This document shows positions 21,165 to 36,358 of a stretch of DNA of 64,000 nt, one piece after another; position 1 is the first letter of the stretch; every line of letters starts with the position of its first letter. The notes under the pieces were generated by a model that was not told where the DNA came from, made no database searches, and saw only the letters and a list, made by a program, of their open reading frames with translations. The stretch is from Minisyncoccia bacterium (lineage in GTDB: Bacteria; Patescibacteriota; Minisyncoccia; Phycocordibacterales; CSBR16-119), in assembly GCA_047619465.1 (NCBI GenBank), contig JBLHJW010000001.1, positions 8,911 through 72,910 on the forward strand, in the 5' to 3' direction. A program made the position numbers and the translations under genes.

Positions 21165-23270
21165 CTATTCGTACTGAGCCAGCACAGCTGCCGCAGTCTT
21201 TGCTGTTGGAGCAAAGTCATAGGCAATCTTTGCAAGCCGATATGCTTCTTCTCTGTTCCCCATAGAATTCTCAACAGAAGCCAGCGTCCAGTAGCCAAGC
21301 TGATGCTCTGGACTTATCTCTATAGCAAGACTTGCATATCTATGTGCTTTTTCTACATACAACTCTTTTGATTCTCCTTGAGCCATACCTGAACTAAACA
21401 GTGCCGTCCTGGCGATAGTCACACTTGTACGTAAATCATCTGGATGTATAACCATAGACTTTTCCATTTCCTCAATAAAAACATCTTGAACATGCATAAC
21501 ATTTTCAGGGTATCTCGCTATTATCTGAGGGAATTGCACAATTTGGCCTCTCCACATTTCGGCGAGAAGTTTTATCTTTTCTGTCTCTCCAACTCTACTG
21601 CTTTGAACTTTAGAGATCAGTCTGTCCGTTGCTTCTGCAGAGGTTATAAACTCACCTTTAGAAAAGTTTATTGTTGCATTAGATGAGCCGTATGGAATGA
21701 ATACAAAAAATATCAAGCAAGCCAGCAGGCCAAATCCAGCTACAGATTGACCCACCCCCTCTTTCCAAAATTTTCCTGGAGCCTGGATTTCCTTTCCTCC
21801 TCGGCTTGCAACAAAAGCAAAAATTAAAGTAAACAACTGATATGTTGTAACAGTGTCAAACACTGTTAGGTTCTGAAGCAGGTGAATAATCAAAAGAACT
21901 GATGGAATAAAACTCTCCCAGAAATCTGCCTCACCTCTTCGATACCTCCTCCACAAGAAAATCAGTGCCAACACATACATTGAAGCAAACGACAGTGCCC
22001 CCAGAGATCCTGTTGTAGCCAGAATCTCATAACCAACACTGTGAGCTTTGTCCATCCAGTCATCCCCACCAAACTCAGCGGTAAGAAACTCTGGCTGATA
22101 AAAATCTTGATAAACATAGGTAAAGGTCCCTATCCCATAGCCAAGTAAAGGTCTAGTCTTCCAAGCGCTCACAGCACTCTCCCAAACCAAGACCCTAGAC
22201 TTCGACGCCTGAGCTGAAAGAAAATTTCTAACGGGAGAATTTGAAATAAAGAACATCACGACCGTCGAAAGAAAAACAATCGCAGTCAAAATAAGTAGAA
22301 TTTTTGAAGCTTGTTTAATAAACTTCTTTTTTGTATAAACAAAGCATCCTCCTAGAGCCATAGCGCCCATTCCCAGATAAAGAGAAATACTAGCGGCTCT
22401 AGCCTGACCAAGAATCAGTAACGGGTTTTTAAAGATATCAAAAAATCCATTTTTGCCATTCCATATCCTAGCCCCAAAGAATATAGGAGTTATAAAAATT
22501 GTTATCATCATGATGGCTAAAACACCTCTACTCTTATATTCTTCAATCCATAGATAGGCCATTAAGAAGAAACTTATCAACAAATATGAACCAGCAAAGG
22601 AAGTATTCCCGATGAGAGATCCTGCTCCCTTAGAAATGTCCATAAGGCCAAATCCGTCGCTACCTAGAATAGCAATCGAGGCTATTATCGTTGCCGAAAT
22701 ACTATTGGACCAAAAAACCTCTAACCAGTCTCTCTTGTCTTTAAAAACAGAACTTGCAACAACAAACAAAGCTCCCAAGTGAAGCCATGTCAGAGCTCCG
22801 TTCATTCTTTCAAAATTGGACCAGAATGAAAGGGATGGATCTACACTGAAAAAAGAAGACAGTAAAACCACAAAGATAAATATCAGGAAACTACCGGAGA
22901 CAACATTTAACCTAAAAACAACCTCCTTTTTAACAAGAAAAGCATACAACCAAAGAAAGAAGACGATCTCAATAAACAAATAGATGACCAACGTCTTAAA
23001 AGATATAAAAGGATATAGCGTGCTTTTTGCTATATAGGTAATAGGCAATAAAAAAACAGACCAAGATATCAATCTTTTGATCCATGTTGATAGTGTTGAG
23101 TTCGATGTCTGAAAAGCCATATATTCACGTGCAAAAATTGCAAAAACGTAGTATACATAGGATATCATGAAAACCTGGAAAATCATCATTCTGGCAATTG
23201 GAGACCTGGTTGCGGCATATGCATCACTATTTTTAATGCTTAAAATTTCTTTCGGAGAAAAACAAGGCAC
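21165..23270 (-). CDS. O-antigen ligase (Wzy_C) domain membrane protein with C-terminal TPR repeats (WaaL/Wzy/PglL-like)
   Basis: 701 aa with ≥10 TM helices. Wzy_C hallmark …SRVLVWESAVSAWKTRPLLGYGIGTF… and a C-terminal TPR region (…EISPEHQLGYWTLASVENSMGNREEAYRLAKIAY…). Start is uncertain: the longest ORF overlaps the divergent wbaP-like start, and internal Mets at ~23168/23120 are more likely. Confidence 0.6.
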   Translation of the reverse strand: MPCFSPKEILSIKNSDAYAATRSPIARMMIFQVFMISYVYYVFAIFAREYMAFQTSNSTLSTWIKRLISWSVFLLPITYIAKSTLYPFISFKTLVIYLFIEIVFFLWLYAFLVKKEVVFRLNVVSGSFLIFIFVVLLSSFFSVDPSLSFWSNFERMNGALTWLHLGALFVVASSVFKDKRDWLEVFWSNSISATIIASIAILGSDGFGLMDISKGAGSLIGNTSFAGSYLLISFFLMAYLWIEEYKSRGVLAIMMITIFITPIFFGARIWNGKNGFFDIFKNPLLILGQARAASISLYLGMGAMALGGCFVYTKKKFIKQASKILLILTAIVFLSTVVMFFISNSPVRNFLSAQASKSRVLVWESAVSAWKTRPLLGYGIGTFTYVYQDFYQPEFLTAEFGGDDWMDKAHSVGYEILATTGSLGALSFASMYVLALIFLWRRYRRGEADFWESFIPSVLLIIHLLQNLTVFDTVTTYQLFTLIFAFVASRGGKEIQAPGKFWKEGVGQSVAGFGLLACLIFFVFIPYGSSNATINFSKGEFITSAEATDRLISKVQSSRVGETEKIKLLAEMWRGQIVQFPQIIARYPENVMHVQDVFIEEMEKSMVIHPDDLRTSVTIARTALFSSGMAQGESKELYVEKAHRYASLAIEISPEHQLGYWTLASVENSMGNREEAYRLAKIAYDFAPTAKTAAAVLAQYE

Positions 23271-24390
23271 TGCGGCGGAAGACCATATACTTCCCTTCTC
23301 TGTTATTTTTGGTATATGGATTATTGTTCTTTTTATTTTTGATCAGTATGACCCAATTGCTGGACGGCCAAAAGTCTACAACATGAAACGCCTTGGATAT
23401 GCTTTAACAACTGCTTTTTTTACTGGAACAATTGTTTTCTACGTTGGACAATTTGGAATAAATCCAAAACTAAACCTTCTTCTAGTTTTTGTTTTTTTTG
23501 TTATTTTATATATTTCTTGGAGACGTATTGTTTTCAAACTACTAGGAGGCGCTTTTGTGGAGCGAGTCTATTTTCTAGATTCAAATGAATATGTGTCTAT
23601 ACTCAAATCAACAATCAAAGGAAATCCTCAGCTTGGATATGCCCTTGTTGAAACTGAAAGTGAATCAGATATAGTCATCTCTAAAATACCATTTTCACGA
23701 GGGAAAAAACTACTATCTCTTGCGGGTGCATATGAGAGTATAATGCAAAAAATACCAGTTGATATAGCTGAAAAAACTCTTGGCTATCAAATAGAATCTC
23801 GCCAAGAAAATATACTAGGAGTCTTTCTAAAAAGATCTTTTGACATTGTTTTCTCTCTTACGGCTTTAGCTGCAACATCTTGGCTGTGGCCAATCATAAT
23901 AGCTGGAATAAAGTTAGACGATCGAGGTCCTGTGCTATACACACACAAAAGAGTTGGACTTGATAACAAACCTTTCTCTTTTATCAAATTCAGGTCCATG
24001 AAAGTTGACGCAGAAAAAGACGGCGCAGTCTGGGCAGAAAAGGAAGACTCTAGAGTTACAAAATTTGGACGGTTCTTACGAAAAAGCCATCTAGATGAAA
24101 TCCCTCAAATGATCAATGTCCTCCGTGGAGATATGTCTGTTGTTGGACCCAGACCTGAGCGACCAGAATTTGTCTCGCAGCTAGAGGAAGAAATACCTTT
24201 GTATGACCTGCGACACATTATCAAACCCGGGTTTACTGGATGGGCTCAAATAAAGTACCGTTATGCTAGAACAGTCTCTGAGTCAAAAGAGAAATTTGAG
24301 TACGATCTATACTACATAAAGAACAAAAGTTTCATTCTTGATATGGGTGTAATGCTTAAAACAGTCCAGATTGTTGTGACTCATTTATAA
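23167..24390 (+). CDS. polyprenyl-phosphate glycosylphosphotransferase (WbaP/CpsE-like initiating sugar transferase, Bac_transf family)
   Basis: 407 aa. N-terminal TM block, then a C-terminal domain …DIVFSLTALAATSWLWPIIIAGIKLDDRGPVLYTHKRVGLDNKPFSFIKFRSMKVDAE…PRPERPEF… typical of the family. Confidence 0.8.
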   Translation: MKTWKIIILAIGDLVAAYASLFLMLKISFGEKQGTAAEDHILPFSVIFGIWIIVLFIFDQYDPIAGRPKVYNMKRLGYALTTAFFTGTIVFYVGQFGINPKLNLLLVFVFFVILYISWRRIVFKLLGGAFVERVYFLDSNEYVSILKSTIKGNPQLGYALVETESESDIVISKIPFSRGKKLLSLAGAYESIMQKIPVDIAEKTLGYQIESRQENILGVFLKRSFDIVFSLTALAATSWLWPIIIAGIKLDDRGPVLYTHKRVGLDNKPFSFIKFRSMKVDAEKDGAVWAEKEDSRVTKFGRFLRKSHLDEIPQMINVLRGDMSVVGPRPERPEFVSQLEEEIPLYDLRHIIKPGFTGWAQIKYRYARTVSESKEKFEYDLYYIKNKSFILDMGVMLKTVQIVVTHL

Positions 24391-24656: not shown

Positions 24657-25760
24657 CTACAGAGATTTATAAACCTCTGTAGTTTTTTTGATCATTTTTT
24701 CAAAAGAATATTTTTCTTCGACATGTTTTCTGAAAGAAACACCTAGGGAGTTTCTCCTGTCTTTATTATTCAAAAGATCTTTTATAGCCTTATTTAGAGT
24801 GGCTGGATCCTTTGATGGAACTAGGACTCCACTCCTAATCAGGATCTCTGAGACTCCCCCAACATCTGTCGCAACCGTAGGGATTCCTAGCTGGCCAGCT
24901 TCAAGAAGAACATATGGTAGCCCTTCCTTTATGGATGGTAGAACAAATACATCAAAAGCCTTCATGTACTTTGCTCCATCTGGAACAAAGCCTAAAAGAA
25001 ATACTTTATCTTCCATCTTCAGAGCTTCTACTTGGTTTAAAATCTCTTTTCTTAGTTCTCCATCACTCATCAAGACAAGATAGCAATCTAAATCTTTTAT
25101 TGCTTCAACTAAATACTTATGCCCTTTGTTTGAATGAAGCTCTGCATTTACCCCAACCCAAAGCTTGTCTGTTGGAATCTTTTTAAACTTCTGAAGCTCT
25201 TCTTTTGCGGCACTAGGATCAAAAGGGTTTTCAATAATGACTCCATGTGGAATATATACTATTTTCTTAGAAACAAAAGGCAGAGCCTTTCCTTTTTTCT
25301 CATCATCTATAGATGGAACTATTACAACGTGAGAAAGAATTGCAGTGAACCAACTGAATAAATAAATCAAGCTTTTAACGAAAATATTTTTGTCTTCTTT
25401 AAATGGCCATCCATGTGCTGTAAAGACAATTTTCTTTACACCTAGAATTCTCCCAGCAAAAGCCCCCAGCCCTCCAAGCTTCGAACTATTCACGTGAATA
25501 ATGTCTGGTTTTTCTTTTTTAATAATCTGAAAAATCTCGGAGAAAAGCCGGAATTCCTTCACCATGGAAATATCTCTCTCGGAGTTGATTAGCTTGCCCT
25601 GGTTAATAGCCTTGCTTCCAAGCTCATCTTGGAGGCGGCCTGTCCCACCAGAATATACAGATACATCAAATCCAGCACCATCCATAGAAAGAGCCAGATC
25701 ATACACATACTTCTGTGCCCCACCCCAATTTGATTTTGTAATAAAATAGATTATTTTCAT
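24657..25760 (-). CDS. glycosyltransferase family 4 (GT-B, 'group 1')
   Basis: 367 aa. N-terminal MKIIYFITKSNWGGAQKYV…, and a C-terminal EGLPYVLLEAGQLGIPTVATDVGG (E-x7-E-like motif). Confidence 0.75.
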   Translation of the reverse strand: MKIIYFITKSNWGGAQKYVYDLALSMDGAGFDVSVYSGGTGRLQDELGSKAINQGKLINSERDISMVKEFRLFSEIFQIIKKEKPDIIHVNSSKLGGLGAFAGRILGVKKIVFTAHGWPFKEDKNIFVKSLIYLFSWFTAILSHVVIVPSIDDEKKGKALPFVSKKIVYIPHGVIIENPFDPSAAKEELQKFKKIPTDKLWVGVNAELHSNKGHKYLVEAIKDLDCYLVLMSDGELRKEILNQVEALKMEDKVFLLGFVPDGAKYMKAFDVFVLPSIKEGLPYVLLEAGQLGIPTVATDVGGVSEILIRSGVLVPSKDPATLNKAIKDLLNNKDRRNSLGVSFRKHVEEKYSFEKMIKKTTEVYKSL

Positions 25761-25776: not shown

Positions 25777-26634
25777 CTAAAATATCTTTTTCCATATTAA
25801 AGCAAAGCCTCTATGTGTCATCCTAAAAATAAAGAAATTTCTTGTCACAATAAACTCTGCGATCAATCTCCCAAAATAAACCCAGAAATATATGTTTCGC
25901 CAATAGTTATTTATACTAACGAATAGAGCAGGAATAAAATTTTCTGCATATATTTTTATTTTCCCATACCTTTTATGTAAATCTAATCTGTCAGTATAAT
26001 AAGTATAAAGAACCTCTTCTAATACATCAAAAATATACCCCTCATTAATTAATGTTAAGAACAAGACAAGATCCTCTGGTCTATACATGACCGGGTATAA
26101 ATGACTATCAAAAACCTCTCGTCTTACCATCATTGTGGGGTGTAACATCATAGACTTGGTAAAGAAATTTTTTGTTATTTCTTTGTAATATATCCTTTTT
26201 GGCTTCCTTTGTACAACACGACCGTCTTCCGAAACCTCTTCCCACCATGTGAACAATAGATCTACATTTTTGTTACTCTCCAAAAAATTAATCTGCTTTG
26301 CAAGTTTATCAGAAAAATGACACTCATCATCAGCATCCATTCTTGAAATATATTTACCCTTAGCAACCTTAAGGGCATTATTAAGAGAATCACCTAGACC
26401 AACATTTTTTATATTTTGAATTATTTTCACCCTGCCATCCCCATCAGACAATTCTCTGATTTTTTTCAAAGCAGGAGTGTTCAATGGGTTATCTAAAACA
26501 ATAATAAACTCAAAATCTACGTAACTCTGGTCTAAAACACCGGAGATGGCGCTCTCTATTTGAGTGATATTTTCTTTGTAAACGGCCATGATTACCGAGA
26601 CGACAGGCTTGTTCATATACATGGTATTATACAT
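25777..26634 (-). CDS. glycosyltransferase family 2
   Basis: 285 aa. VSVIMAVYKE…LDQSY…FEFIIVLDN…RMDADD (DxD), the GT-A fold signature. Confidence 0.75.
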   Translation of the reverse strand: MYNTMYMNKPVVSVIMAVYKENITQIESAISGVLDQSYVDFEFIIVLDNPLNTPALKKIRELSDGDGRVKIIQNIKNVGLGDSLNNALKVAKGKYISRMDADDECHFSDKLAKQINFLESNKNVDLLFTWWEEVSEDGRVVQRKPKRIYYKEITKNFFTKSMMLHPTMMVRREVFDSHLYPVMYRPEDLVLFLTLINEGYIFDVLEEVLYTYYTDRLDLHKRYGKIKIYAENFIPALFVSINNYWRNIYFWVYFGRLIAEFIVTRNFFIFRMTHRGFALIWKKIF

Positions 26635-26653: not shown

Positions 26654-27508
26654 ATGAAAAATAACATTCCTAAAAAAATATGGATATTATGGCTACAAGG
26701 CTGGGAAAATGCACCAGAGATTGTAAAGGAATGCCGAAAATCATGGGAGAAACTCAATCCAGATTGGGAGGTTGTAGCGCTTGATAATATTACTCTCTCA
26801 CAATATATTGATAGTGAAGAGTATTTAAACAACCCTAAGATTCCACCTCAGGCACTATCAGATATTATCAGAATACTTCTTCTAAAAAAACATGGTGGTG
26901 TCTGGGCAGATGCGAGTGTCTTCTGCTCAAAACCCCTTAATGAATGGGTTTATGATCATACCCCAAGGGGCTTTTTTGCATTTTCCAAGCCTGGTCCTTA
27001 TTATGACAAACTAACATCAAGCTGGTTTCTTGTCTCTGAGAAAAATAATATTGTTATTAGTGAATGGTTGATGGAAACCAAACTGTTTTGGAGCAAAGGC
27101 CCGGTTGCACCCGCAACAATAACTAAAACGTATCATAAACTATCTCACATCTTGATAATGCTTAGGCAATCTTGGGTTCTTAAGAAAAGTCAATTTTTTC
27201 TAAAAAAATCTCTGGGACTATTTCCATATTTCTGGTTTCATTATATTTTTGATAAACTATATGCAAGGAACAAGGAAGTTAAAAAAATATGGGATTATAC
27301 TCCGCATATTAGCGCTGATGGGCCTCATAAACTTATTTTTTATGGACTTGAAAAAGACACTACAAAAGAAATTCTCTCGTTTATCAATAGTAATGAGTCT
27401 TTTGTACACAAACTCTCTTGGCGTACAGACATTACACGTGAAGATCTAAAGAATTCTTCTGTAAATATTTTAATAGACACTACGAAGAATAAATATTCAT
27501 TTTACTAA
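26654..27508 (+). CDS. GT32-like / capsular-polysaccharide-synthesis-type glycosyltransferase (DXD sugar-binding family)
   Basis: 284 aa. IPKKIWILWLQGWENAP…C..SWEKLNPDWEVVALDN… and HGGVWADASVFC, matching Gly_transf_sug/Caps_synth-type motifs. Confidence 0.55.
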   Translation: MKNNIPKKIWILWLQGWENAPEIVKECRKSWEKLNPDWEVVALDNITLSQYIDSEEYLNNPKIPPQALSDIIRILLLKKHGGVWADASVFCSKPLNEWVYDHTPRGFFAFSKPGPYYDKLTSSWFLVSEKNNIVISEWLMETKLFWSKGPVAPATITKTYHKLSHILIMLRQSWVLKKSQFFLKKSLGLFPYFWFHYIFDKLYARNKEVKKIWDYTPHISADGPHKLIFYGLEKDTTKEILSFINSNESFVHKLSWRTDITREDLKNSSVNILIDTTKNKYSFY

Positions 27509-29011: not shown

Positions 29012-30272
29012 GATTTAGATACTTTAACATTATTATTTGGACAACAATAGCAATTACAAATTCTGTTGGCAAAGCAAGGGAAATCACAAGGTTTTTATTT
29101 TCAGAATGATATGATAGCAAGAAAAAAGTTACAACAAAAGCGACCAACCCTACAGTCCGATAGAAATACATAATCTTAATCTGTTTGGTTGCAACAAACA
29201 ACTGATCAAGCAAGTTTCGAATTGGGGCAAGGAATATTAAAGAACCCAGAAAAATGCTGGGAAGAACAAAATCAGTGTACTCAGGAAAAAAATGCCTAAT
29301 TAGAGATCCTGAGATCAATGTATAAAAAACAAAAATTGCGAACAGAAAAATAAAATAAGCAAATATTTTTTTGTAAAAAATTATTCTTTCAGATGTAAGA
29401 CTCCAGTCTTTCCCAGCAAGTTTTGGCAAGGATAGCTGTGTGACAAAACCTGTCAAACCTCTAATAGCATTGGGAAAAGCGAGGGCTACAACATATCCAG
29501 CAAGCATTACTGGGCCTAAGAAGTGCCAGACCATAAGCTTATCCATTTGATCAGATACTGTAGTCAGAACCCCCGTTAATGATAGTTTTTTTCCATAAGA
29601 AATAACTTCTTTGGTTTGGATCTCATCATATCTCTCATCAATTTTCTTGGCGGTCATTTTAAAAAGGGCGCTTCTTGAGATTAATTGCCCAAGGAAAAAT
29701 GCAAGAACCACAGCAAGTACATTATCTGTAAACAACACCGCAAGAATCACAAATAATGATTGAACCATAAGCCCACCAATCTGGTATATAGAAAATAGCT
29801 TAAAATTCTTTTTTCCTCTATAGTAGGCCGTATACAGGTGTAAAGATTCAATAAACGGAAGCAGAGGAGAAACTAATAGAAAAACAAGGCCAAGAGTCTG
29901 ATTGCTTCTTATGAAGTAATAGAGTGATAATCCAAGGGCAACTAAAAAACCAATAAAGCTCCATTTTATACGCTTTTTAACAACCCTCCAAAGTGAAACT
30001 TTCTCGTTTTTTGAAAATGCCAAGGTTATAGCATTATCCATTCCAGGAAGTGAGAATATGAAAAGGAGAGAGATTGTTGAAATAACATATTTATAAACAC
30101 CAAAATCCTCCTTAGAAAGATGGGTTGTCAAAAATAAAGTAACAACAAAGCCTATAGCAGCCGCAGCCGCTTTAAAAAGCATTAACCAAAAACCACCCTG
30201 AGCAATATATGTCATATCTGTTTTTGTATATTTCTCTGTAAATTTTAATGCTTTTTTAATTTTTTCTAACAT
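28995..30272 (-). CDS. oligosaccharide/O-antigen flippase (Wzx, MOP superfamily)
   Basis: ~425 aa with ~12 TM helices in the typical Wzx arrangement. The start is taken at MLEKIKKALKF (30272); the track's longer N-terminus overlaps the gmd remnant. Confidence 0.7.
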   Translation of the reverse strand: MLEKIKKALKFTEKYTKTDMTYIAQGGFWLMLFKAAAAAIGFVVTLFLTTHLSKEDFGVYKYVISTISLLFIFSLPGMDNAITLAFSKNEKVSLWRVVKKRIKWSFIGFLVALGLSLYYFIRSNQTLGLVFLLVSPLLPFIESLHLYTAYYRGKKNFKLFSIYQIGGLMVQSLFVILAVLFTDNVLAVVLAFFLGQLISRSALFKMTAKKIDERYDEIQTKEVISYGKKLSLTGVLTTVSDQMDKLMVWHFLGPVMLAGYVVALAFPNAIRGLTGFVTQLSLPKLAGKDWSLTSERIIFYKKIFAYFIFLFAIFVFYTLISGSLIRHFFPEYTDFVLPSIFLGSLIFLAPIRNLLDQLFVATKQIKIMYFYRTVGLVAFVVTFFLLSYHSENKNLVISLALPTEFVIAIVVQIIMLKYLNHEKKK

Positions 30273-30295
30273 AATCTTTCTGTATATTAAAATAA

Positions 30296-30537
30296 GACTC
30301 AACTTTAATTATGTTCGTAGGACCTATCAGTTTTCCATAGTGAAACATGTGACTCTTGTCTTTTTTATTATGATATTAATACAAGTATTCAACACGTGTG
30401 ATATTGAAGAATGAGAACCATCTCTTGGGCCCATTAACCTCTTATCATTTACTTACAAGGGGTTCAGCTAGATATGAGCCATCCTGGCCTGTTATACCGG
30501 TTATTAGGGCTATTTTATTGTTTTCTGGTTGTTCCAT
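30296..30537 (-). pseudogene. gmd: decayed N-terminal remnant of GDP-mannose 4,6-dehydratase (gmd)
   Basis: Minus-strand translation from the ATG at 30537 gives [80 protein letters not shown]…. This is collinear with Gmd ([48 protein letters not shown]…FHLHYGDLSD…), but in-frame TGA and TAA replace the GY dipeptide and a further TAA follows. Only ~80 codons remain. Confidence 0.55.
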
Positions 30538-30706: not shown

Positions 30707-30708
30707 TC

Positions 30709-32166
30709 TTATTCATTTGGCTTCAATCTTGGATAGCAGCAACGATGCCGATAACCAGTCTCATTTTGACCATTATGGGTAACGCTTTGACAATCACCAT
30801 TACCCCAAAGAACAAAATCGTTATTAATATCACTAGTTGCATCATCAACCCATTCCCAATTATTTTTCATATTAACTAAATTTAACTGGCTTTCAAGTTC
30901 GCATGCAGCTCTCCATTGACCAGAAGAACAAAGGTTTCCATCTTTCTCAACACATTTTTTTGATGATTGCCACCAGCTAAGTCCACCAGAGTCGTCTATA
31001 TCAATACAGTAGTTTGCGTTAACGGCAACAGAACCTGTTGGACAACCAATAGAAATAGGGTGAGTTATAACAACACTATCCCCTCCCGAAATAAAAATTG
31101 TATCACCTGAGATACTAAGATATTGAGCTATCCCTAGACCAGGATCGCCCTGCAATCCTTGTAGGCCTGTTGGACCAATGGGTCCAGTTGACCCCTGCAA
31201 ACCAATGATTCCTTGTAATCCCTGAAGTCCTTGTTGTCCTTCAGAGCCTGTGGGACCTGTGGGGCCTGTACTTCCAATCAATCCTTGAGGTCCAGTAGAG
31301 CCAGTAGGTCCTTCTTGGCCATTTAACCCTGTATTACCAACTAAGCCTTGAACCCCTTGCGGTCCGGTAGATCCTGATATCCCTTGCTGACCTTGAATCC
31401 CATTGGGACCCATGACACCTGTTGACCCAGTGGGACCAGATAAACCAATCAAACCTTGTGGACCTTGGATTCCATCTACACCAGTAATACCTTGGGGGCC
31501 AGTGGGTCCAATAGACCCTTGTACACCGATAGAACCATCTTGACCTGGAAACCCTTGAGGGCCTTCTGGACCTGTTGTTCCCTGGATTCCTACAACACCT
31601 TGTGGACCGGTTGCACCTATACTTCCTTGCAGGCCTGTGGAACCTGTCAAACCCTGAGGTCCAGTAGGACCAATTGATCCAGTCAGACCTTGCGGCCCTG
31701 ATAAGCCAATAGGTCCTGTCGGTCCAGCGGGACCTGCAGGGCCAGGATCTTCTGAGCTACCTGATGTTTCAGCATACAGCGCATACGGAACAGATAAGAG
31801 CTGAGAAGCGCCTAGGAATTCATACTCCAAAGAAGATCCATTCCAGAGTTCAATCTTCAGGAAATAATTTCCTGAAGACCAATCTATAGAAGAAAATACA
31901 CCAGAAACAACTTGACCACCTCCAACATGAAGAGTGAATAATCCAAACTGATTTGTTGTAGGACTGTGAACCTCCTGATAGGATGGCTGGTTCTGAGGGT
32001 CAGTAGGTACGATAGAGATTCTAATCTCAATTGATTGATTTACCATAATTATACCTCCAGCGTCACGAGCTACAGCTTGATAGCTAAACCTCTGTGGTGG
32101 AGAAGTCTGCTGAGCAAAAAGAGGGTAAGAAAAAAGCATAGTCACGGCAAGCATTAGATTTTTCAT
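30709..32166 (-). CDS. secreted collagen-like (Gly-X-Y triple-helix repeat) protein with a Cys-rich C-terminal domain
   Basis: 485 aa. Signal peptide [20 protein letters not shown], an N-terminal ~120-aa globular domain, ~200 aa of uninterrupted GPxGxxG repeats (…[22 protein letters not shown]…), and a C-terminal domain with 8 Cys (…[13 protein letters not shown]…CVEKDGNLC…CCYPR). Confidence 0.8.
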
Positions 32167-32373: not shown

Positions 32374-32664
32374 ATGTCACGAAAACTTCCATGTATATAT
32401 ATACTTACAAACAAAAGAAACGGAACCCTTTACACCGGAGTAACTTCGAACCTGAAGCAACGAATTTATCAGCATAAAAATAATGAAACAGAGGGCTTTA
32501 CCAAAAAATATAAAGTTCACATACTTGTATTTTATGAATTTGGCGATTCTATGGAAGGAGCAATTATGAGAGAAAAACAGATAAAGGCTGGATCAAGAAA
32601 GAGAAAAATTGATTTAATAGAAAGAATGAACCCTCTCTGGGAGGATTTATTTGATACTCTGTAA
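32374..32664 (+). CDS. stand-alone GIY-YIG nuclease-domain protein (YhbQ/UPF0213-like, ~97 aa)
   Basis: MSRKLPCIYILTNKRNGTLYTGVTSNLKQRIYQHKNN…: the GIY…YIG spacing, conserved Arg and Glu downstream. The track ORF starts earlier at a TTG inside the repeat; ATG 32374 (or 32359) is more plausible. Confidence 0.7.
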   Translation: MSRKLPCIYILTNKRNGTLYTGVTSNLKQRIYQHKNNETEGFTKKYKVHILVFYEFGDSMEGAIMREKQIKAGSRKRKIDLIERMNPLWEDLFDTL

Positions 32665-32950: not shown

Positions 32951-35900
32951 TTATGAAGGGTTGATGTGTAGTTGTGAGTACTCGGTAGACATCATATCTC
33001 CACGCCATAGCACATCTGCTACTGCGTTTGCGAAGTTGGCTCCGTCAATTCCGAAGTCTAGATCTGCCCCTGTTGAGCTATCTAGTTGAAGTTGGATAGA
33101 GTCATTGTTTGCTGTCAAAGCTGAAGTATTGTATGTAACATACACTATTTCGCTTGATCCAGCTGAAACTACAAGCTCATTTGTAACGAAGTCCAAAGTG
33201 ATTTCGTTTGTAGCTGTTCCTGTAGCAACTGATGTTGATGAAAGAATAACACCAAGCTCATCTTTGAATGTCATCAAAAGATTTGCGGCTCCAGATGCTT
33301 GTACAACAATAGATTGCAATACAATCTTGTTACCGTTTGCGTTCTGGAATGTAACATCCTCATCTCCATTAGCTGTGATCTTTAGCTTTCCAACCTGATG
33401 GTTGGCGTTGTTTGCCAAAGTTGTGTTTCCAATTGTCATCCACTCAAATGTTGGGTATGACTGGAATAGGTTAGCTGAAGTAGATGTACCAACTCCTGCT
33501 GAGCCAATAGCTGAACCGGAAGCAAGTCCTGTTCCATCTATATCTCCTGCTGTGGAAATTGCAATATTAACTGCATTACCATTTGCTGCTGATGAGAAGT
33601 CTACATCTCGTGTTGAAGCTTTAACTGCAACCTTGATGTAGTCATTTCGTGGAATTTCCACTGCTCCTTCAGCCCACTCAGCTGTAGCTGTAGTACCTGT
33701 GTTAGCAACTGCAACTGCAGATCCTAAGTTGGCACCATTCTTATCCATAGCTTGGAAGTAGTATGTATCTACTACTGATGAAGCTCCGGTTCCTCCAGCT
33801 GTCATAATAAGTGAGTCAAGCTCGATATCTTCAACGCTGCTAGCAGCAAGTCGGAAGATAGCAAGTGTTTCCATACCTCCTTGATTATCATCAAGAACTA
33901 CTCCTTCGTTTGGTGATGAAGAATCAACTGTGACTGTAAGTACTCCTGTAGACTCTGAAGTCATAGCTTGTCCTGCACCTGAAGGTGTAACTACAATTGC
34001 ATCTCCTGTATCAGCTCCTGTAGCTGTTAAAGCAGAAAGGTCAACTGTGTAAGTATCGTTTGATCCTGCAGCTGTTGATCCTGATGAAAGATCAGCAACA
34101 AATGCAACTCGTACAGATGTATCTTTTGCAACTGTGAACACCTCTGAAAGGTTGTACGCTTGTGTTGCAGCTGAAATCTGTTCTAGATCAGAAATCTCAG
34201 TTTCGAATCGGTCTCCTCTTTCTGAGTCATTTCCTGTTCCGGCAAGGTCAGCCCATAGAGATGCATTGTCAAGGTCAGCATATGCTGCAGTACCTGCAAT
34301 AGCAAATCCAGCAGTAATATCTGAAATCTCTACATCCTCTCCTGATCCTACAGCAGAGAAGTCAAGGTGTGCCCATACGAAGTCTTGTGCTCCAACGGCC
34401 ACATCTTGTGCTCCTGGTGTTGTAAGAGTTGTAGCAGTAAGTGAACCAGCTTCAATTGTAAGCGTGTTACCTGCTACTGCTGATGCTGGTGCTGCTGTAA
34501 GAGTATCATTTGATGATATTCCCTTTACAGTAATTGTTGTTGCTGAGTTATCAACTCCAGCTTTAATTGTATCTGCTGAACCAAAAGCTGTTCCAAGATC
34601 AGCGTATACACCAACCTTTGTAGTTCCTACAAGGAATTCCATTGTGTCAGTAAATACGATCTTGTCTCCTGATACAGCGTCATTTGGACCTGAAAGCGTT
34701 TCTCCAGATTCGAAGTTCTTAAGAACAACGTTTGTAACATCTCCAAAAGCAGGACCTCCTGCTAGATCGATGTCAACTTGGAAGCTTGTTACTTGAACCT
34801 CTTCTCCTGTAACGATAACGTCCAGAACTGCAAGAAGCCTGTCATCTCCTTCTGTAACATTTCCTGTTGCTGGTGTCTCTGAAGACTTAGCTACAGTAAA
34901 CGCTCCTGCTGCGATAGTTTGGTTTGATGTACCTTGTCCATCAAAGCCAGATGCCCATGATCCGTTTGTAGGTGTAATGTAGTAACCATAATCGTTACCC
35001 ATTGCCATTACTCGAACGTCTGAACCATCTGTTAGGTCAGCGTTAATTGTAAGTCCTGTTCCATCTGTAAGATCAAGTCGGATTTGGAATCGGTGATTAT
35101 CACCTTCTTCCAATACCATTCCTAGACCGTTGAATGTAGCAAGTCCTTGTGCATCCCACCCTGATACTGTAGCGATTGTTGCTCCATCTGTAACAGAGTA
35201 AAGCTCAATGTTTGCAGCGTCATCTGAAGATGCTGATCCTCGCTTTTCAACTTGGATCTGCTCGATTGTTACAGCTTCTGTAGAACCTGCAGTAATCTTG
35301 AACTTGTTAACGATAACGTCAGTGTCTCCAACATCTGGTGTTGAGTCTGAAGTTGTTCCGTCCTTAGCAACAGTAAGAGAACCAATTGATAGGCTCAATA
35401 TTTCGAACTCATCTCCTGTAACAGGGAATGATCCGTCTACGTCAGGTGAACCAGAGAAATCGATATCATCCATAGAATCAATACCGAAGTATGCTGATTG
35501 CCCCTGTGTAGCTACTGAGTCAACTCCTGCTCGCAAGTAGAACATTGTAGTTTCACCAGACATAACCTCTAGGTTAGGTGAGAATGAAAGTTTTACTTGG
35601 TTTGAAGAGTTAAGTGTTCCAGCTGATGTAAGTGCTACACCATCTGCATCAAGAACCTTTAGGTTCTCCCAGTTAGAGTTAACTGACTGACCGTATCGAG
35701 TGAACGTAATGTCATCGATAGATAGGTCGTCTTCTCCAGCAGAGATTTCAAATGCAAACACGTTAGCGTTTCCACCTGTTGCGATCATTCCTCCATCAAG
35801 AGAAACTCCGTCAACCTCTCCTGCTCCAACTCCTTCTGGTGTTGATGATTCTCCTTCTGATTCTCCTTCTGATTCACAGTTGTCAGAAACATAAGCTAGG

Positions 35901-36358
35901 TATGAAGCCTGTGTGTTTGGTCCCCATACACCATCTGGTGTTGTTCCAATAATTTCTTGGAAGTACTGTACAACACCTGTTGTAAGTGGTCCAAAGGCTG
36001 AGTCCTCAACTAGAGGTGCCATAGATCCGTTTGAAAGATCTAGAATTTGGTTCATAGCTTTTTGAATTGCTAGAACGTTTGCTCCTGACATACCACTTCG
36101 AACAATTGATGATGTTCCGTAAGTATCACATGAAGTCATTGATGATGAACCGCTTCCCATTGTTGGCTCACCGTTAAGTGCTGATTCCACATCGGCTAGT
36201 GTTGATGCTGGTGCATCAAAAGATGATAGCAATCCTAGGATCGCATCGATCTGAGTTTGTGTTAGAGCTTGGGCTGTTGGAAGTGCAACGAATCCGAAGA
36301 TTGTTGTAGCAACCAAAAGCGCAGTCAAAGCTCCTGAAAGTTTTTTAGTAATTTCCAT
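32951..36358 (-). CDS. giant secreted surface protein (1135 aa) with an N-terminal peptidoglycan-binding-like domain and a long S/T/G/A/D-rich beta-repeat region
   Basis: Signal peptide MEITKKLSGALTALLVATTIFGFVALPTAQA. The segment …GMSGANVLAIQKAMNQILDLSNGSMAPLVEDSAFGPLTTGVVQYFQEIIGTTPDGVWGPNT… matches the PG_binding_1 pattern (G..V..LQ..L… DG.FG..T..AV..FQ). An acidic SEGESEGES linker follows, then ~900 aa of repetitive beta-strand-like sequence. Confidence 0.6.
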   Translation of the reverse strand: MEITKKLSGALTALLVATTIFGFVALPTAQALTQTQIDAILGLLSSFDAPASTLADVESALNGEPTMGSGSSSMTSCDTYGTSSIVRSGMSGANVLAIQKAMNQILDLSNGSMAPLVEDSAFGPLTTGVVQYFQEIIGTTPDGVWGPNTQASYLAYVSDNCESEGESEGESSTPEGVGAGEVDGVSLDGGMIATGGNANVFAFEISAGEDDLSIDDITFTRYGQSVNSNWENLKVLDADGVALTSAGTLNSSNQVKLSFSPNLEVMSGETTMFYLRAGVDSVATQGQSAYFGIDSMDDIDFSGSPDVDGSFPVTGDEFEILSLSIGSLTVAKDGTTSDSTPDVGDTDVIVNKFKITAGSTEAVTIEQIQVEKRGSASSDDAANIELYSVTDGATIATVSGWDAQGLATFNGLGMVLEEGDNHRFQIRLDLTDGTGLTINADLTDGSDVRVMAMGNDYGYYITPTNGSWASGFDGQGTSNQTIAAGAFTVAKSSETPATGNVTEGDDRLLAVLDVIVTGEEVQVTSFQVDIDLAGGPAFGDVTNVVLKNFESGETLSGPNDAVSGDKIVFTDTMEFLVGTTKVGVYADLGTAFGSADTIKAGVDNSATTITVKGISSNDTLTAAPASAVAGNTLTIEAGSLTATTLTTPGAQDVAVGAQDFVWAHLDFSAVGSGEDVEISDITAGFAIAGTAAYADLDNASLWADLAGTGNDSERGDRFETEISDLEQISAATQAYNLSEVFTVAKDTSVRVAFVADLSSGSTAAGSNDTYTVDLSALTATGADTGDAIVVTPSGAGQAMTSESTGVLTVTVDSSSPNEGVVLDDNQGGMETLAIFRLAASSVEDIELDSLIMTAGGTGASSVVDTYYFQAMDKNGANLGSAVAVANTGTTATAEWAEGAVEIPRNDYIKVAVKASTRDVDFSSAANGNAVNIAISTAGDIDGTGLASGSAIGSAGVGTSTSANLFQSYPTFEWMTIGNTTLANNANHQVGKLKITANGDEDVTFQNANGNKIVLQSIVVQASGAANLLMTFKDELGVILSSTSVATGTATNEITLDFVTNELVVSAGSSEIVYVTYNTSALTANNDSIQLQLDSSTGADLDFGIDGANFANAVADVLWRGDMMSTEYSQLHINPS

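What the first reader, a model, noticed from the sequence alone, without database searches (positions are those of the whole stretch)
21165..36358. Candidate protein-glycosylation / sulfated-glycan system next to a collagen-like protein and a giant PG-binding surface protein
Within ~15 kb, all pointing at the cell surface, lie:
- a Wzy_C+TPR membrane protein, an architecture shared by O-antigen ligases and by PglL/PilO-type O-oligosaccharyltransferases;
- a WbaP-like initiating phosphoglycosyl transferase;
- GT4, GT2 and GT32-like transferases;
- two paralogous sulfotransferase-like genes with PAPS-binding 5'-PSB/3'-PB motifs;
- a Wzx flippase;
- a decayed gmd;
- a secreted 485-aa Gly-X-Y collagen-like protein;
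- an 1135-aa secreted protein whose N-terminus looks like a peptidoglycan-binding domain followed by S/T-rich repeats.

A lipid-linked, possibly sulfated oligosaccharide assembled here could be transferred en bloc to these S/T-rich surface proteins, or to a lipid anchor. Collagen-like glycoproteins with dedicated glycan loci are known, for example Bacillus BclA. A sulfated version combined with a collagen-like protein would be an extracellular-matrix-mimicking surface layer, which is interesting for an organism with an episymbiont-like gene repertoire. The link between the glycan genes and the two surface proteins is inference from adjacency only.
Basis: partly seen in the sequence, partly recalled or inferred. 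Interest (0 to 1): 0.7.

Follow-up and report, generated by a model that had tools for sequence, protein, structure and literature searches.

The report
Sulfated surface-glycan island in a Paceibacteria genome
An ultrasmall (CPR) bacterium carries a swappable gene island that most likely builds a sulfated sugar chain and passes it to an enzyme shaped like known protein-glycosylating enzymes, next to a cell-wall-anchored surface protein; the sulfate-donor genes that related islands carry are not in the 64 kb read here.

Summary
All ten listed genes are real at the stated coordinates; Pfam and NCBIfam support every domain call. The contig comes from a Candidatus Paceibacteria (CPR) genome assembled from a metagenome.

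The Wzy_C protein (651 aa) has a WaaL-type fold and a C-terminal TPR domain predicted to face outward, the architecture reported for the O-oligosaccharyltransferases PglL and WsfB. Its family is widespread in CPR. It pairs with the initiating transferase and recurs near peptidoglycan-binding surface proteins related in N-terminal domain or body to the 1135-aa protein in seven loci, and near an unrelated one in an eighth. The collagen-like gene is shared only with the closest relative and looks like an adhesin fibre.

The gmd remnant marks a recombination breakpoint of a swapped island.

Verdict: a new variant of a known kind, resembling S-layer-glycosylation and synechan loci. Protein glycosylation is plausible but unproven.

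The parts
20335..21003 (-). Small protein (222 aa) with an N-terminal membrane anchor and a TPR-like region, directly downstream of the Wzy_C gene. Possible accessory partner, as the TPR protein WsaA is to WsaB.
   Evidence: Weak Pfam TPR hits (TPR_2 E 3e-5). The N-terminal hydrophobic helix is visible in the translation. Similar small anchored TPR genes lie next to the surface-protein gene in L034, L144, L166 and L094; their sequence similarity to this one is marginal (E 7e-5 to 0.01).
21165..23120 (-). Wzy_C-TPR membrane enzyme (651 aa). It has 13 transmembrane helices, a catalytic outer loop at residues 291-361 (R309, W313 and H360 are invariant in the family), and a C-terminal TPR domain at 488-651 predicted to lie outside the membrane. 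It is the candidate final transferase: O-oligosaccharyltransferase, ligase or polymerase.
   Evidence: Pfam Wzy_C. AlphaFold model with pLDDT 89.9 and pTM 0.91. Top Foldseek hit is WaaL 7tpg (E 1.7e-5), followed by TPR proteins. The family profile hits WaaL at 2.5e-12 and the oligosaccharyltransferase 9rmk at 3.3e-12. Topology follows the positive-inside rule.
23167..24390 (+). Initiating polyprenyl-phosphate hexose-1-phosphate transferase (WbaP/WcaJ type), transcribed divergently from the Wzy_C gene.
   Evidence: Pfam Bac_transf 1e-65. TIGR03025 scores 317.5 bits against a cut-off of 295.55. A homologue lies within 10 kb of the Wzy_C-TPR gene in 36 of 80 related metagenome loci.
24657..25760 (-). 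GT4 glycosyltransferase.
   Evidence: Glycos_transf_1 6.1e-31 and Glyco_transf_4 2.4e-20.
25777..26634 (-). GT2 glycosyltransferase.
   Evidence: Glycos_transf_2 2e-25.
26654..27508 (+). GT32-like (Caps_synth, DXD motif) glycosyltransferase, always found next to the STb sulfotransferase.
   Evidence: Caps_synth 2.3e-46 and Gly_transf_sug 3.6e-11. The GT32/STb pair is conserved in L003, L005, L006, L007, L034, L037 and L048.
27511..28287 (+). Sulfotransferase STb (258 aa), with a lineage-specific variant of the 5'-phosphosulfate-binding motif (NSKVAQTA).
   Evidence: Sulfotransfer_2 3.9e-14. Orthologues are 56-58% identical in L003, L005 and L006, 57% in L034, and about 50% in L037 and L048. 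The Lys, the RNPxxRxxS motif and the His are conserved.
28280..29011 (-). Sulfotransferase STa (243 aa), with the canonical PKTGCSS 5'-PSB and RNPFDRIAS 3'-PB motifs; overlaps the end of wzx.
28995..30302 (-). Wzx-type flippase.
   Evidence: Polysacc_synt 1.9e-12 and Polysacc_synt_3 1.2e-11. It is 41% identical to the L003 flippase but only 30% to that of the syntenic relative L034.
30301..30537 (-). gmd pseudogene: codons 1-79 of GDP-mannose 4,6-dehydratase with three in-frame stops, cut off where wzx begins. Marks a recombination breakpoint of the island.
   Evidence: tblastn with the intact L034 gmd (348 aa, GDP_Man_Dehyd 3.3e-157) gives 52% identity over residues 1-79.
30709..32166 (-). 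Secreted collagen-like fibre protein. It has a signal peptide, an N-terminal domain, 68 uninterrupted Gly-X-Y triplets (residues 142-345; Thr in 20 Y positions) and a Cys-rich C-terminal head.
   Evidence: Collagen 2.2e-32. Triplet count. The orthologue in L034 is 42% identical over the full length. The C-terminal domain family has 404 representative clusters and often caps collagen stalks.
32951..36358 (-). 1135-aa acidic, Ala/Thr/Gly/Ser-rich secreted protein with an N-terminal PG_binding_1 domain. Candidate wall-anchored surface-layer protein and candidate glycan acceptor.
   Evidence: PG_binding_1 7.5e-6. PDB 1lbu peptidoglycan-binding domain at E 0.007. Composition. Proteins related in N-terminal domain or body lie next to or near Wzy_C-TPR genes in L003, L138, L034, L094, L144 and L166; PG_binding_1 itself reaches the Pfam cut-off in L034, L003 and L138, is sub-threshold in L094, was not detected in L144 and was not scanned in L166.
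37300..38067 (-). Protein with a DeoR-like helix-turn-helix, conserved next to the surface-protein gene. Possible regulator.
   Evidence: HTH_DeoR 9.7e-7. Homologues occupy the same relative position in L034 (56% identity), L138 and L094.

Best explanation
This is a strain-variable surface-glycan island in the chromosome of a Candidatus Paceibacteria (CPR) bacterium.

Proposed pathway:
1. The WbaP-type transferase starts an oligosaccharide on a polyprenyl phosphate at the inner face of the membrane.
2. The GT4, GT2 and GT32-like transferases extend it.
3. Two Sulfotransfer_2 enzymes add sulfate from PAPS. STb is always paired with the GT32 gene. STa is paired with the flippase gene.
4. Wzx flips the finished unit to the outside.
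5. The Wzy_C-TPR enzyme takes the unit off the lipid carrier and transfers it to an acceptor. It has a WaaL/PglL-type fold and an outward-facing TPR domain.
6. The most likely acceptor is the peptidoglycan-anchored, acidic 1135-aa surface protein. The arrangement resembles the S-layer-glycosylation (slg) loci of Gram-positive bacteria.

The central part of the island was exchanged by recombination, leaving a truncated gmd. Unlike three related islands it carries no PAPS-synthesis genes, so sulfation here depends on genes outside the window.

Shown: the gene content, the sulfotransferase motifs in both copies, the fold of the STa model and of the Wzy_C model, and the comparative linkage.
Inferred: the order of steps, the topology (positive-inside rule applied to the model's helices), the acceptor, and that sulfation is active in this genome.

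Confidence by part: about 0.85 that this is a Wzx-dependent glycan pathway with genuine sulfotransferases; about 0.4 that the acceptor is a protein.
For: Gene content and identity:
- All domains are confirmed.
- The organism is Ca. Paceibacteria, protein accessions MFT5359552-606.

Sulfation:
- K44, R94, N95, P96, R99, S102 and H149 are invariant or nearly so across 18-20 homologues, including both paralogue lineages.
- PAPS-synthesis genes sit inside the related clusters L003 (a Sat-CysC fusion), L005 and L006 (CysD plus a CysN-CysC fusion).
- They also lie within 10 kb of the sulfotransferase in 15 of 79 loci from GTDB genomes.

Final transferase:
- The model has a WaaL fold plus a TPR domain. 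Both the catalytic loop and the TPR domain are predicted to be outside the membrane.
- PglL and WsfB are reported to have Wzy_C plus a C-terminal TPR. WsaB has a separate small TPR partner, WsaA (PMC2943079).
- The window also has a small anchored TPR gene beside the enzyme gene.
- No second polymerase, co-polymerase or LCP ligase was found among the window's ORFs of 100 aa or more.

Link to the surface protein:
- Related surface proteins are directly upstream of Wzy_C-TPR on the same strand in L003 and L138.
- They lie within four genes in L094, L144 and L166, and across the island in the window and L034. In L124 an unrelated PG_binding_1 protein lies two genes away.
- L138 has the same frame as the window (FtsK, HTH, surface protein, Wzy_C ... 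L10, L12) but without an island.

Island variability:
- Identity to L034 is 76-86% in the flanks. It falls to 30% for Wzx, 51-57% for GT32 and STb, 42% for the collagen-like protein and 32% for the surface protein.
- The gmd gene is truncated at codon 79.
Against: - No PAPS-synthesis gene lies in the 64-kb window. None lies in the 20 kb of the closest syntenic relative L034 either. Whether the genome has one elsewhere could not be determined.
- The Wzy_C family profile matches WaaL and a solved oligosaccharyltransferase equally well, at 49.2 versus 48.8 bits. The enzyme class is therefore not resolved.
- In 33 of 80 related loci the gene's immediate neighbour is murB. That fits a cell-wall-polymer role as well as a protein-glycosylation role.
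- Surface-protein linkage was seen in only about 8 of 86 loci. Many contigs are short, and the background frequency of such proteins in CPR genomes is unknown.
- Part of the conserved adjacency with L034 may simply be inherited synteny.
- No glycosylation site motif can be tested with these tools.
Confidence: 0.55

Rival explanations
1. The locus makes a sulfated capsule or exopolysaccharide. The Wzy_C-TPR protein is the Wzy polymerase that joins flipped repeat units into a polymer, as in the synechan (xss) system of Synechocystis or the sulfated capsules of marine Vibrio and Cobetia. The neighbouring surface proteins are unrelated bystanders.
For: - The gene set (PGT, GTs, Wzx, a Wzy_C-domain membrane protein, two sulfotransferases) mirrors the xss cluster, which has two sulfotransferases plus Wzx and Wzy (PMC8205485).
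- Wzy_C is the only candidate for a step after flipping.
- Sulfotransferase genes lie in polysaccharide loci across many phyla.
Against: - No polysaccharide co-polymerase (Wzz/PCP) or LCP ligase was found in the window.
- The enzyme carries an outward-facing TPR domain, reported for the O-oligosaccharyltransferases PglL and WsfB. From my own knowledge, Wzy polymerases do not typically have one.
- The best structural match is the ligase WaaL.
- Linkage to PG-binding surface proteins recurs in eight loci.
Confidence: 0.22
2. The Wzy_C-TPR protein is a ligase that attaches the glycan to a membrane glycolipid, as TacL does when it makes pneumococcal lipoteichoic acid, or to the cell wall. The product is then a sulfated lipoglycan or wall glycopolymer of a bacterium without an outer membrane.
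For: - TacL is a Wzy_C protein that ligates Und-PP-linked chains to a glycolipid in a Gram-positive bacterium (PMC5727136).
- The best fold match is WaaL.
- In 33 of 80 CPR loci the gene sits directly upstream of murB, which suggests a core cell-envelope role.
Against: - TacL is 397 aa and has no TPR domain. This family has an extracytoplasmic TPR domain of a kind usually used to bind proteins.
- Adjacency to surface-protein genes recurs.
- The murB adjacency may be plain synteny.
Confidence: 0.15
3. Sulfation no longer works in this genome. The island arrived by recombination without the PAPS-synthesis genes that travel with it elsewhere, so the two sulfotransferase genes are idle passengers and the glycan is unsulfated.
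For: - There are no PAPS genes in 64 kb, whereas L003, L005 and L006 carry them in-cluster.
- gmd has decayed at the island border, which shows that gene loss has happened here.
Against: - Both sulfotransferase ORFs are intact and keep all catalytic residues.
- A second strain keeps them at 99-100% identity, although there are too few substitutions to measure selection.
- L034, L037 and L048 also keep STb without PAPS genes within the sequence held on either side, at most 10 kb. This suggests the donor pathway is often encoded elsewhere in these genomes.
Confidence: 0.15
4. The collagen-like protein is the dedicated acceptor, giving a BclA-like glycosylated collagen fibre and a sulfated layer that mimics extracellular matrix.
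For: - Twenty Gly-X-Thr triplets in the stalk resemble the GPT repeats that, from my own knowledge, are O-glycosylated in BclA.
- The gene lies between the island and the surface-protein gene in both the window and L034.
Against: - No collagen-like gene was found in the other 80 Wzy_C-TPR loci, nor in the other sulfotransferase loci.
- Its C-terminal Cys-rich head belongs to a family of 404 clusters that often caps collagen stalks (five of ten members scanned). That fits a stand-alone adhesin fibre.
- Its conservation with L034 can be explained by overall synteny.
Confidence: 0.1

Closest known systems
S-layer glycosylation (slg) gene clusters of Geobacillus stearothermophilus NRS 2004/3a and Paenibacillus alvei (WsaP/WsfP, WsaB/WsfB, WsaA)
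   Same: - A WbaP-like initiating transferase.
- Several glycosyltransferases.
- A Wzy_C-domain transferase with a C-terminal TPR (WsfB), or with a separate small TPR partner (WsaA with WsaB).
- A location beside the gene for a wall-associated surface protein in a bacterium without an outer membrane (PMC2943079).
   Different: - From my own knowledge, the Geobacillus cluster exports its glycan with an ABC transporter; this locus uses Wzx.
- A term search of the review text finds no mention of sulfation.
- The acceptor here is not a known S-layer protein, and its glycosylation is untested.
- The organism is a CPR bacterium.
Synechan (xss) sulfated exopolysaccharide cluster of Synechocystis sp. 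PCC 6803
   Same: A Wzx-dependent lipid-linked pathway with two sulfotransferase genes of different subfamilies embedded among glycosyltransferases (PMC8205485).
   Different: - xss has eight GTs, a separate Wzy, a co-polymerase and an outer-membrane exporter, and it makes a free polymer.
- This locus has three GTs plus a PGT.
- It has no co-polymerase or exporter.
- Its only late-acting enzyme is a Wzy_C-TPR protein.
PglL/PilO (TfpO)-type general O-oligosaccharyltransferase systems of Neisseria, Pseudomonas and Acinetobacter
   Same: - A Wzy_C catalytic core.
- A C-terminal TPR, as reported for PglL.
- A profile match to the solved oligosaccharyltransferase 9rmk at E 3.3e-12.
- Many family members sit beside a PglF/CapD-like dehydratase, a DegT aminotransferase and a PGT.
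   Different: - Those systems act in the periplasm of bacteria with two membranes.
- Their acceptors are pilins and lipoproteins.
- The match to 9rmk is no stronger than the match to WaaL.
WaaL O-antigen ligase (PDB 7tpg) and the TacL lipoteichoic acid ligase
   Same: WaaL is the best fold match (Foldseek E 1.7e-5, TM 0.57 on the target). The family keeps invariant Arg and His residues in the outer loop, the loop where, from my own knowledge, WaaL's catalytic residues lie; their equivalence was not checked by structural alignment. TacL shows that such enzymes can act in bacteria with a single membrane.
   Different: - WaaL and TacL are about 400 aa and have no TPR domain.
- From general knowledge, CPR bacteria are not expected to have the lipid A-core acceptor that WaaL uses; this was not tested genome-wide.
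Bacterial collagen-like surface proteins (Scl1/Scl2, Lcl, BclA)
   Same: A signal peptide, a long uninterrupted Gly-X-Y stalk and a globular C-terminal head. NCBIfam hits to Lcl and SclB cover the collagen region only and fall below their cut-offs.
   Different: - Inspection of the translated sequence shows no LPXTG motif.
- No Lcl_C domain hit was found.
- The head is an uncharacterised Cys-rich domain.

Membership tests
PAPS-dependent sulfotransferase (Pfam Sulfotransfer_2, PF03567) | Profile HMM score above the curated cut-off | tested here: met
   STa scores 79.3 bits and STb 53.8 bits against a cut-off of 22.
PAPS-dependent sulfotransferase (Pfam Sulfotransfer_2, PF03567) | 5'-phosphosulfate-binding loop with its catalytic Lys, and the 3'-phosphate-binding Arg and Ser (RNPxxRxxS) | tested here: met
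   K44, R94, N95, R99 and S102 are invariant in 18-20 homologues. The STb lineage has a conserved variant loop, NSKVAQTA.
PAPS-dependent sulfotransferase (Pfam Sulfotransfer_2, PF03567) | Sulfotransferase fold | tested here: met
PAPS-dependent sulfotransferase (Pfam Sulfotransfer_2, PF03567) | A PAPS supply (ATP sulfurylase plus APS kinase) in the same genome | tested here: inconclusive
   None is present in the 64-kb window. PAPS genes are present inside the related clusters L003, L005 and L006.
Wzx/Wzy-dependent polysaccharide pathway | Initiating phosphoglycosyl transferase, glycosyltransferases and a Wzx flippase | tested here: met
   Bac_transf/TIGR03025, GT4, GT2, GT32-like and Polysacc_synt are all present.
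Wzx/Wzy-dependent polysaccharide pathway | A dedicated Wzy polymerase with a chain-length regulator (PCP/Wzz) | tested here: not met
   No Wzz/PCP was found, and no second polytopic candidate, among the window's ORFs of 100 aa or more. The only candidate is the Wzy_C-TPR protein. Only the window was tested, not the whole genome.
O-oligosaccharyltransferase systems (PglL, PilO, WsaB/WsfB) | A Wzy_C catalytic domain with conserved outer-loop Arg and His | tested here: met
   Wzy_C scores 45.9 bits against a cut-off of 31.7. R309 and H360 are invariant in 37 family members.
O-oligosaccharyltransferase systems (PglL, PilO, WsaB/WsfB) | A C-terminal TPR domain or a separate TPR partner, as reported for PglL, WsfB and WsaA | tested here: met
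   The model shows a helical repeat domain at residues 488-651 that matches TPR structures. Most family members have Pfam TPR hits. There is no Pfam TPR hit in this copy itself. A small anchored TPR ORF lies at 20335-21003.
O-oligosaccharyltransferase systems (PglL, PilO, WsaB/WsfB) | Closer to known O-oligosaccharyltransferases than to ligases or polymerases | tested here: inconclusive
   Against the family profile, 9rmk (oligosaccharyltransferase) scores 48.8 bits and 7tpg (WaaL) 49.2 bits. No phylogeny including PglL, PilO, WsfB, TacL and Wzy could be built with these tools.
O-oligosaccharyltransferase systems (PglL, PilO, WsaB/WsfB) | A demonstrated glycosylated acceptor protein | not testable with these tools
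   There is only genomic linkage: related surface proteins next to or near the enzyme gene in seven loci counting this window, and an unrelated PG_binding_1 protein in L124.
WaaL O-antigen ligase | WaaL-type membrane fold | tested here: met
   7tpg_B is the top Foldseek hit, E 1.7e-5, with TM 0.57 on the target.
WaaL O-antigen ligase | A lipid A-core acceptor, meaning an organism that makes LPS | not testable with these tools
   No lpx or outer-membrane genes are in the window. From general knowledge, CPR bacteria lack LPS. The whole genome was not available.
Bacterial collagen-like proteins | A long uninterrupted Gly-X-Y region plus a secretion signal | tested here: met
   There are 68 consecutive triplets at residues 142-345 and a Pfam Collagen hit at 2.2e-32. 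A hydrophobic N-terminus is visible in the sequence.
Bacterial collagen-like proteins | Family-specific anchor or head: LPXTG (Scl), Lcl_C (Lcl) or a C1q-like head (BclA) | tested here: not met
   NCBIfam Lcl and Scl hits cover only the collagen region and lie far below their cut-offs. There is no Lcl_C hit. Inspection of the translated sequence shows no LPXTG motif; the head fold was not modelled, so a C1q-like head was not tested. The head belongs to an uncharacterised family.

The most novel reading that the evidence does not exclude
Parcubacteria/Paceibacteria (CPR) may possess a general surface-protein O-glycosylation system. It would be built on an ancestral gene pair: a peptidoglycan-binding surface protein and a Wzy_C-TPR O-oligosaccharyltransferase. 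Strain-variable glycan islands would be inserted between the two genes. In some lineages, including this one, the island would make a sulfated oligosaccharide. To my knowledge that would be the first sulfated protein-linked glycan in Bacteria; the known precedents are archaeal S-layer glycoproteins. The result would be a negatively charged, matrix-like coat that shapes attachment of the ultrasmall cell to its host or resistance to phage.
Probability: 0.25. Interest if true: 0.75.

Novelty: new variant of a known kind. Interest (0 to 1): 0.5.

Why it matters
CPR bacteria live attached to other cells, yet almost nothing is known about the chemistry of their surface. This locus, together with its relatives, points to three things:
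- A conserved late-acting enzyme, Wzy_C-TPR paired with an initiating transferase, around which variable glycan genes are exchanged.
- A sulfation module that travels with its own PAPS-synthesis genes in some lineages.
- A recurrent link to wall-anchored surface proteins.

If the glycan is attached to protein, this would extend S-layer-type glycosylation to CPR and add sulfation to bacterial protein glycans. The steep fall in identity is the signature of a surface under diversifying selection: 76-86% in the flanking genes against 30-57% in the island and 32-42% in the surface proteins. That makes the locus useful for strain typing and for thinking about host and phage specificity.

The enzymes are small and can be expressed, so the key claims can be tested without culturing the organism.

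Tried and rejected
1. Looking up the window's own proteins to reach the rest of the contig. Nothing was on record; the source contig appears to be masked, so the genome could not be searched for PAPS genes.
2. A profile search with three CPR APS-kinase domains, to find one with an accession in this genome's range. All 8000 scored candidates were significant, and the 120 listed included no Paceibacteria entry. Inconclusive.
3. dN/dS of the sulfotransferase and GT genes against a second strain, L170. At 99-100% identity there are only 0-9 substitutions per gene. Uninformative.
4. Single-sequence searches of the PDB with STa, the Wzy_C protein and the collagen head. No significant hits. Only profile and fold searches worked.
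5. My first idea was that the collagen-like gene and the GIY-YIG gene were a recent insertion that broke gmd. I rejected it because L034 has the collagen-like gene beside an intact gmd. The truncation lies on the wzx side, so it was the glycan island that was replaced.
6. L008 looked like a locus with many sulfotransferases. It is a mirror-image assembly artefact and was ignored.
7. The 'gmd-like' gene in L003 has a GalE-like epimerase N-terminus by inspection and tblastn finds no counterpart of it in the window, so it cannot serve as the counterpart of the window's remnant.
8. Literature searches for sulfotransferases in CPR/Patescibacteria and for PDB entry 9RMK found nothing relevant.

Full report
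**1. What is in the sequence**

The window is a piece of a CPR chromosome. It carries a 23S and a 5S rRNA gene and densely packed housekeeping genes: BipA, SecDF, FtsW, L10/L12, FtsK, RecA, EF-P, SSB, S6, several tRNA synthetases and SHMT. Exact protein look-ups place it in an NCBI metagenome-assembled genome named Candidatus Paceibacteria bacterium. The locus tags are ACI88L_0000xx, the proteins are MFT5359552-606, and the contig is 101,768 bp.

- Wzy_C at 21165-23270(-)
- Bac_transf at 23167-24390(+), which also passes the NCBIfam cut-off for TIGR03025 EPS_sugtrans
- GT4 at 24657-25760(-)
- GT2 at 25777-26634(-)
- Caps_synth/Gly_transf_sug (GT32-like) at 26654-27508(+)
- Sulfotransfer_2 at 27511-28287(+) and at 28280-29011(-)
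- Polysacc_synt (Wzx) at 28995-30302(-)
- Collagen at 30709-32166(-)
- PG_binding_1 in the 1135-aa protein at 32951-36358(-)

The decayed gmd is also real. Window 30537->30301(-) aligns to residues 1-79 of an intact gmd at 52% identity, with three in-frame stops, and it ends where wzx begins.

Three corrections apply:
- The Wzy_C protein is most likely 651 aa, starting at M51.
- Pfam finds no TPR in this copy.
- The 1135-aa protein is S/T-rich and acidic but has no repeats detectable by BLAST.

**2. The sulfotransferases**

The two proteins are 34% identical. Each belongs to its own conserved lineage, STa and STb, with orthologues at 55-59% identity in other loci.

Across 18-20 homologues the following are invariant or nearly so: the 5'-phosphosulfate-loop lysine (K44), the 3'-phosphate motif RNPxxRxxS (R94, N95, P96, R99, S102) and H149. 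The STb lineage has a conserved variant loop, NSKVAQTA.

The strongest evidence is comparative. Three related loci carry the same module: wzx, STa, then STb and GT32 on the opposite strand.
- In L003, a Sat-CysC fusion (PUA_2 + ATP-sulfurylase + APS_kinase) lies directly upstream of wzx.
- In L005 and L006, CysD and a CysN-CysC fusion follow the cluster.

Two non-orthologous routes to PAPS have therefore been recruited to the same module. In a scan of one genome per GTDB species, more than 555 stretches encode relatives of these sulfotransferases, spread across many phyla. PAPS-synthesis genes lie within 10 kb in 15 of the 79 loci fetched.

The family is therefore a genuine, widespread, PAPS-linked glycan sulfotransferase family.

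**3. The caveat for this genome**

The window has no ATP sulfurylase, CysD or APS kinase. The only tblastn matches worth noting are the BipA GTPase domain to CysN (E 0.003-0.006) and one chance-level hit at E 0.04. The closest syntenic relative, L034, also has none in its 20 kb, and neither do L037 and L048.

I could not read the rest of the genome. The source contig seems to be masked in the look-up tool. A profile search for APS kinase was swamped by generic hits.

Both sulfotransferase ORFs are intact, and a second strain keeps them at 99-100% identity. That is too close to measure selection. Active sulfation here is likely but not shown.

**4. The Wzy_C-TPR enzyme**

The AlphaFold model (pLDDT 89.9, pTM 0.91) has 13 membrane helices, a large loop at residues 291-361 and a C-terminal helical-repeat domain at 488-651. 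The loop holds the residues R309, W313 and H360, which are invariant in the family.

The positive-inside rule places both the loop and the C-terminal domain outside the membrane. The best fold match is the ligase WaaL (7tpg, E 1.7e-5, TM 0.57 on the target). All other matches are TPR proteins.

A profile of 37 family members hits TPR proteins strongly. It also hits WaaL (2.5e-12, 49.2 bits) and a solved 'Oligosaccharyltransferase', 9rmk (3.3e-12, 48.8 bits), equally well. Neither sequence nor fold therefore separates ligase from oligosaccharyltransferase.

The architecture is more informative. A review of S-layer glycosylation states three things (PMC2943079):
- The O-oligosaccharyltransferases WsaB and WsfB contain Wzy_C, as do PilO and PglL.
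- WsfB and PglL have a C-terminal TPR.
- WsaB, which lacks one, is preceded by a 168-aa TPR protein, WsaA.

This window has both features: a fused TPR domain and a 222-aa membrane-anchored TPR-like ORF directly downstream. By contrast the lipoteichoic-acid ligase TacL is a 397-aa Wzy_C protein without TPR (PMC5727136).

**5. Context of the enzyme family**

More than 537 relatives were found in JGI metagenomes, and 80 loci were fetched. Findings from these loci:
- A homologue of the initiating transferase lies within 10 kb in 36 of 80.
- The commonest immediate neighbours are MurB downstream (33 loci), the PGT upstream (20 loci) and an SDR cluster that includes RmlB-type and membrane-bound PglF/CapD-like dehydratases upstream (20 loci).
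- HPF, SecA, DegT aminotransferases, GT4 and Wzx follow nearby.
- None of these 80 loci has the sulfotransferases, the GT32-like gene, PAPS genes or a collagen-like gene.

The Wzy_C-TPR/PGT pair is thus a widespread core envelope module in CPR. The sulfation module is an optional add-on, seen beside the enzyme in the window, L003, L006, L034, L037 and L048.

**6. Link to the surface proteins**

L034 comes from contig CAZOLO010000001.1, 95.6 kb, labelled as an uncultured Saccharibacteria bacterium. It is syntenic with the window. Its gene order is L12, L10, Wzy_C (65% identical), PGT (72%), GT2, a GT32 fusion, STb (57%), a methyltransferase, Wzx (30%), an intact gmd, a collagen-like protein (42%), a small TPR protein, a 1093-aa PG_binding_1 protein (32%) and a DeoR-like HTH protein (56%).

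The flanking housekeeping genes are 76-86% identical. The island and the surface proteins are therefore much more diverged than their surroundings.

Beyond this close relative, surface proteins related to the window's 1135-aa protein in N-terminal domain or body lie in these positions:
- Directly upstream of Wzy_C-TPR on the same strand in L003 and L138.
- Within four genes in L094, L144 and L166.

PG_binding_1 itself reaches the Pfam cut-off in L003 and L138, is sub-threshold in L094, was not detected in L144, and was not scanned in the truncated L166 copy. In L124 an unrelated 989-aa protein with a C-terminal PG_binding_1 domain lies two genes from the enzyme gene.

L138 shows the same frame as the window, FtsK, HTH, surface protein, Wzy_C ... 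L10, L12, but with no island in between. This suggests that the surface-protein/Wzy_C-TPR pair is ancestral and that the glycan island was inserted between the two genes.

Small anchored TPR proteins and the DeoR-like HTH protein recur in the same neighbourhoods.

It is still limited to about 8 of 86 loci, and no background rate is available.

The collagen-like gene is shared only with L034. It has 68 uninterrupted Gly-X-Y triplets, with Thr in 20 Y positions. Its Cys-rich C-terminal head belongs to a family of 404 representative clusters that often caps collagen stalks and has no Pfam model. I read it as a trimeric adhesin fibre. It could also be glycosylated, but nothing ties it specifically to the island.

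**7. History of the island**

In L034, wzx and gmd converge and gmd is intact. In the window, wzx is on the other strand and only 30% identical to the L034 copy, and gmd is cut at codon 79. The central segment was therefore replaced by recombination, with one breakpoint inside gmd. My first idea, that the collagen-like gene and the GIY-YIG gene had been inserted into gmd, does not hold.

**8. Most likely mechanism**

PGT, then three glycosyltransferases, then two cytoplasmic sulfations, then flipping by Wzx, then transfer by the Wzy_C-TPR enzyme to an acceptor outside the membrane.

The window shows no co-polymerase, no second polymerase candidate and no LCP ligase. En bloc transfer of a short unit therefore fits better than polymer export.

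The acceptor I favour is the wall-anchored acidic surface protein. I put about 0.4 on a protein acceptor, against about 0.85 for the pathway as such. The rival explanations, with their approximate confidence, are:
- a sulfated capsule with Wzy_C-TPR acting as the polymerase (0.22);
- a TacL-like ligase to a glycolipid or to the wall (0.15);
- sulfation inactive in this genome (0.15; this question is independent of the acceptor).

**9. Comparison with known systems and novelty**

The closest known systems are:
- the slg clusters of Geobacillus and Paenibacillus, which share the logic and the enzyme architecture;
- the synechan xss cluster, which has two sulfotransferases in a Wzx pathway (PMC8205485);
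- the sulfated capsule clusters of marine Vibrio and Cobetia.

Full-text searches found no paper that holds 'sulfotransferase', 'Candidate Phyla Radiation' and 'PAPS' together, and none of the listed Patescibacteria papers mentions a sulfotransferase. From my own knowledge, sulfated glycans on surface-layer proteins are known from haloarchaea, not from Bacteria.

I rate this a new variant of a known kind, of moderate interest. The components are ordinary and widespread. The combination in a CPR bacterium, and the conserved pairing of enzyme and surface protein, are worth testing.

Noticed in passing
window 13154-16658 (-), especially 13458-13843: The 23S rRNA gene spans 3505 nt against a 2925-nt model. 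It contains a match resembling a group I intron (45.2 bits, just under the Rfam cut-off of 50, E 2e-9). No ORF of 100 aa or more lies inside it.
   Followed up: partly
window 54983-58690 (-): The isoleucyl-tRNA synthetase (1235 aa) carries an inserted histidine-phosphatase domain (His_Phos_1, E 1.4e-30) at residues 591-754, in the middle of the catalytic core.
   Followed up: no
window 32338-32664 (+): A 108-aa GIY-YIG nuclease ORF sits between the collagen-like and giant genes on the opposite strand. The syntenic relative L034 has a small TPR gene at that position instead, so this looks like a mobile insertion.
   Followed up: partly
window 30712-31134 (-), residues 345-485 of the collagen-like protein: The Cys-rich C-terminal head defines an uncharacterised family: 404 representative clusters at E<=1e-3 among 1.84 billion proteins. 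Members are mostly proteins of about 255 aa or caps of collagen stalks. There is no Pfam model. One member also has a sub-threshold Lcl_C domain.
   Followed up: partly
window 31762-32166 (-), N-terminal domain of the collagen-like protein: There is a weak, sub-threshold NCBIfam hit (E 1.2e-4) to the N-terminal domain of the Bdellovibrio mosaic adhesive trimer fibre proteins. This hints that the collagen-like protein may be a host-attachment fibre.
   Followed up: no
loci L090-L169 (metagenome relatives of the Wzy_C-TPR gene): In many CPR contigs the Wzy_C-TPR gene sits in a conserved housekeeping neighbourhood. A PGT or a PglF/CapD-like dehydratase lies upstream. MurB, the ribosome hibernation factor and SecA lie downstream.
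   Followed up: partly
L003:5925-7553, L005:5139-7817, L006:7391-10095: Related sulfation clusters have recruited two different routes to PAPS: a Sat-CysC fusion in one, and CysD plus a CysN-CysC fusion in two others. This is an example of non-orthologous replacement within one module.
   Followed up: partly
L008 (JGI 3300036198, 8.1 kb): The contig is a near-perfect mirror image of itself (sulfotransferase, flippase, sulfotransferase, GT32, then the same in reverse). It is most likely a palindromic assembly artefact.
   Followed up: no
window 40404-40808 (+) and 51759-53633 (-): Two further candidate surface proteins lie outside the finding: a 134-aa protein with a Glucodextran_B domain and a 624-aa protein with a DUF11 repeat.
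   Followed up: no
window 28156-30098 compared with L001 and L010 (sample SRR28416798): In another assembly of the same strain the contigs break exactly across STa and wzx. L001 ends at window position 28155 and L010 starts at 30099. The cause may be the paralogous sulfotransferases or strain variation at the island.
   Followed up: partly
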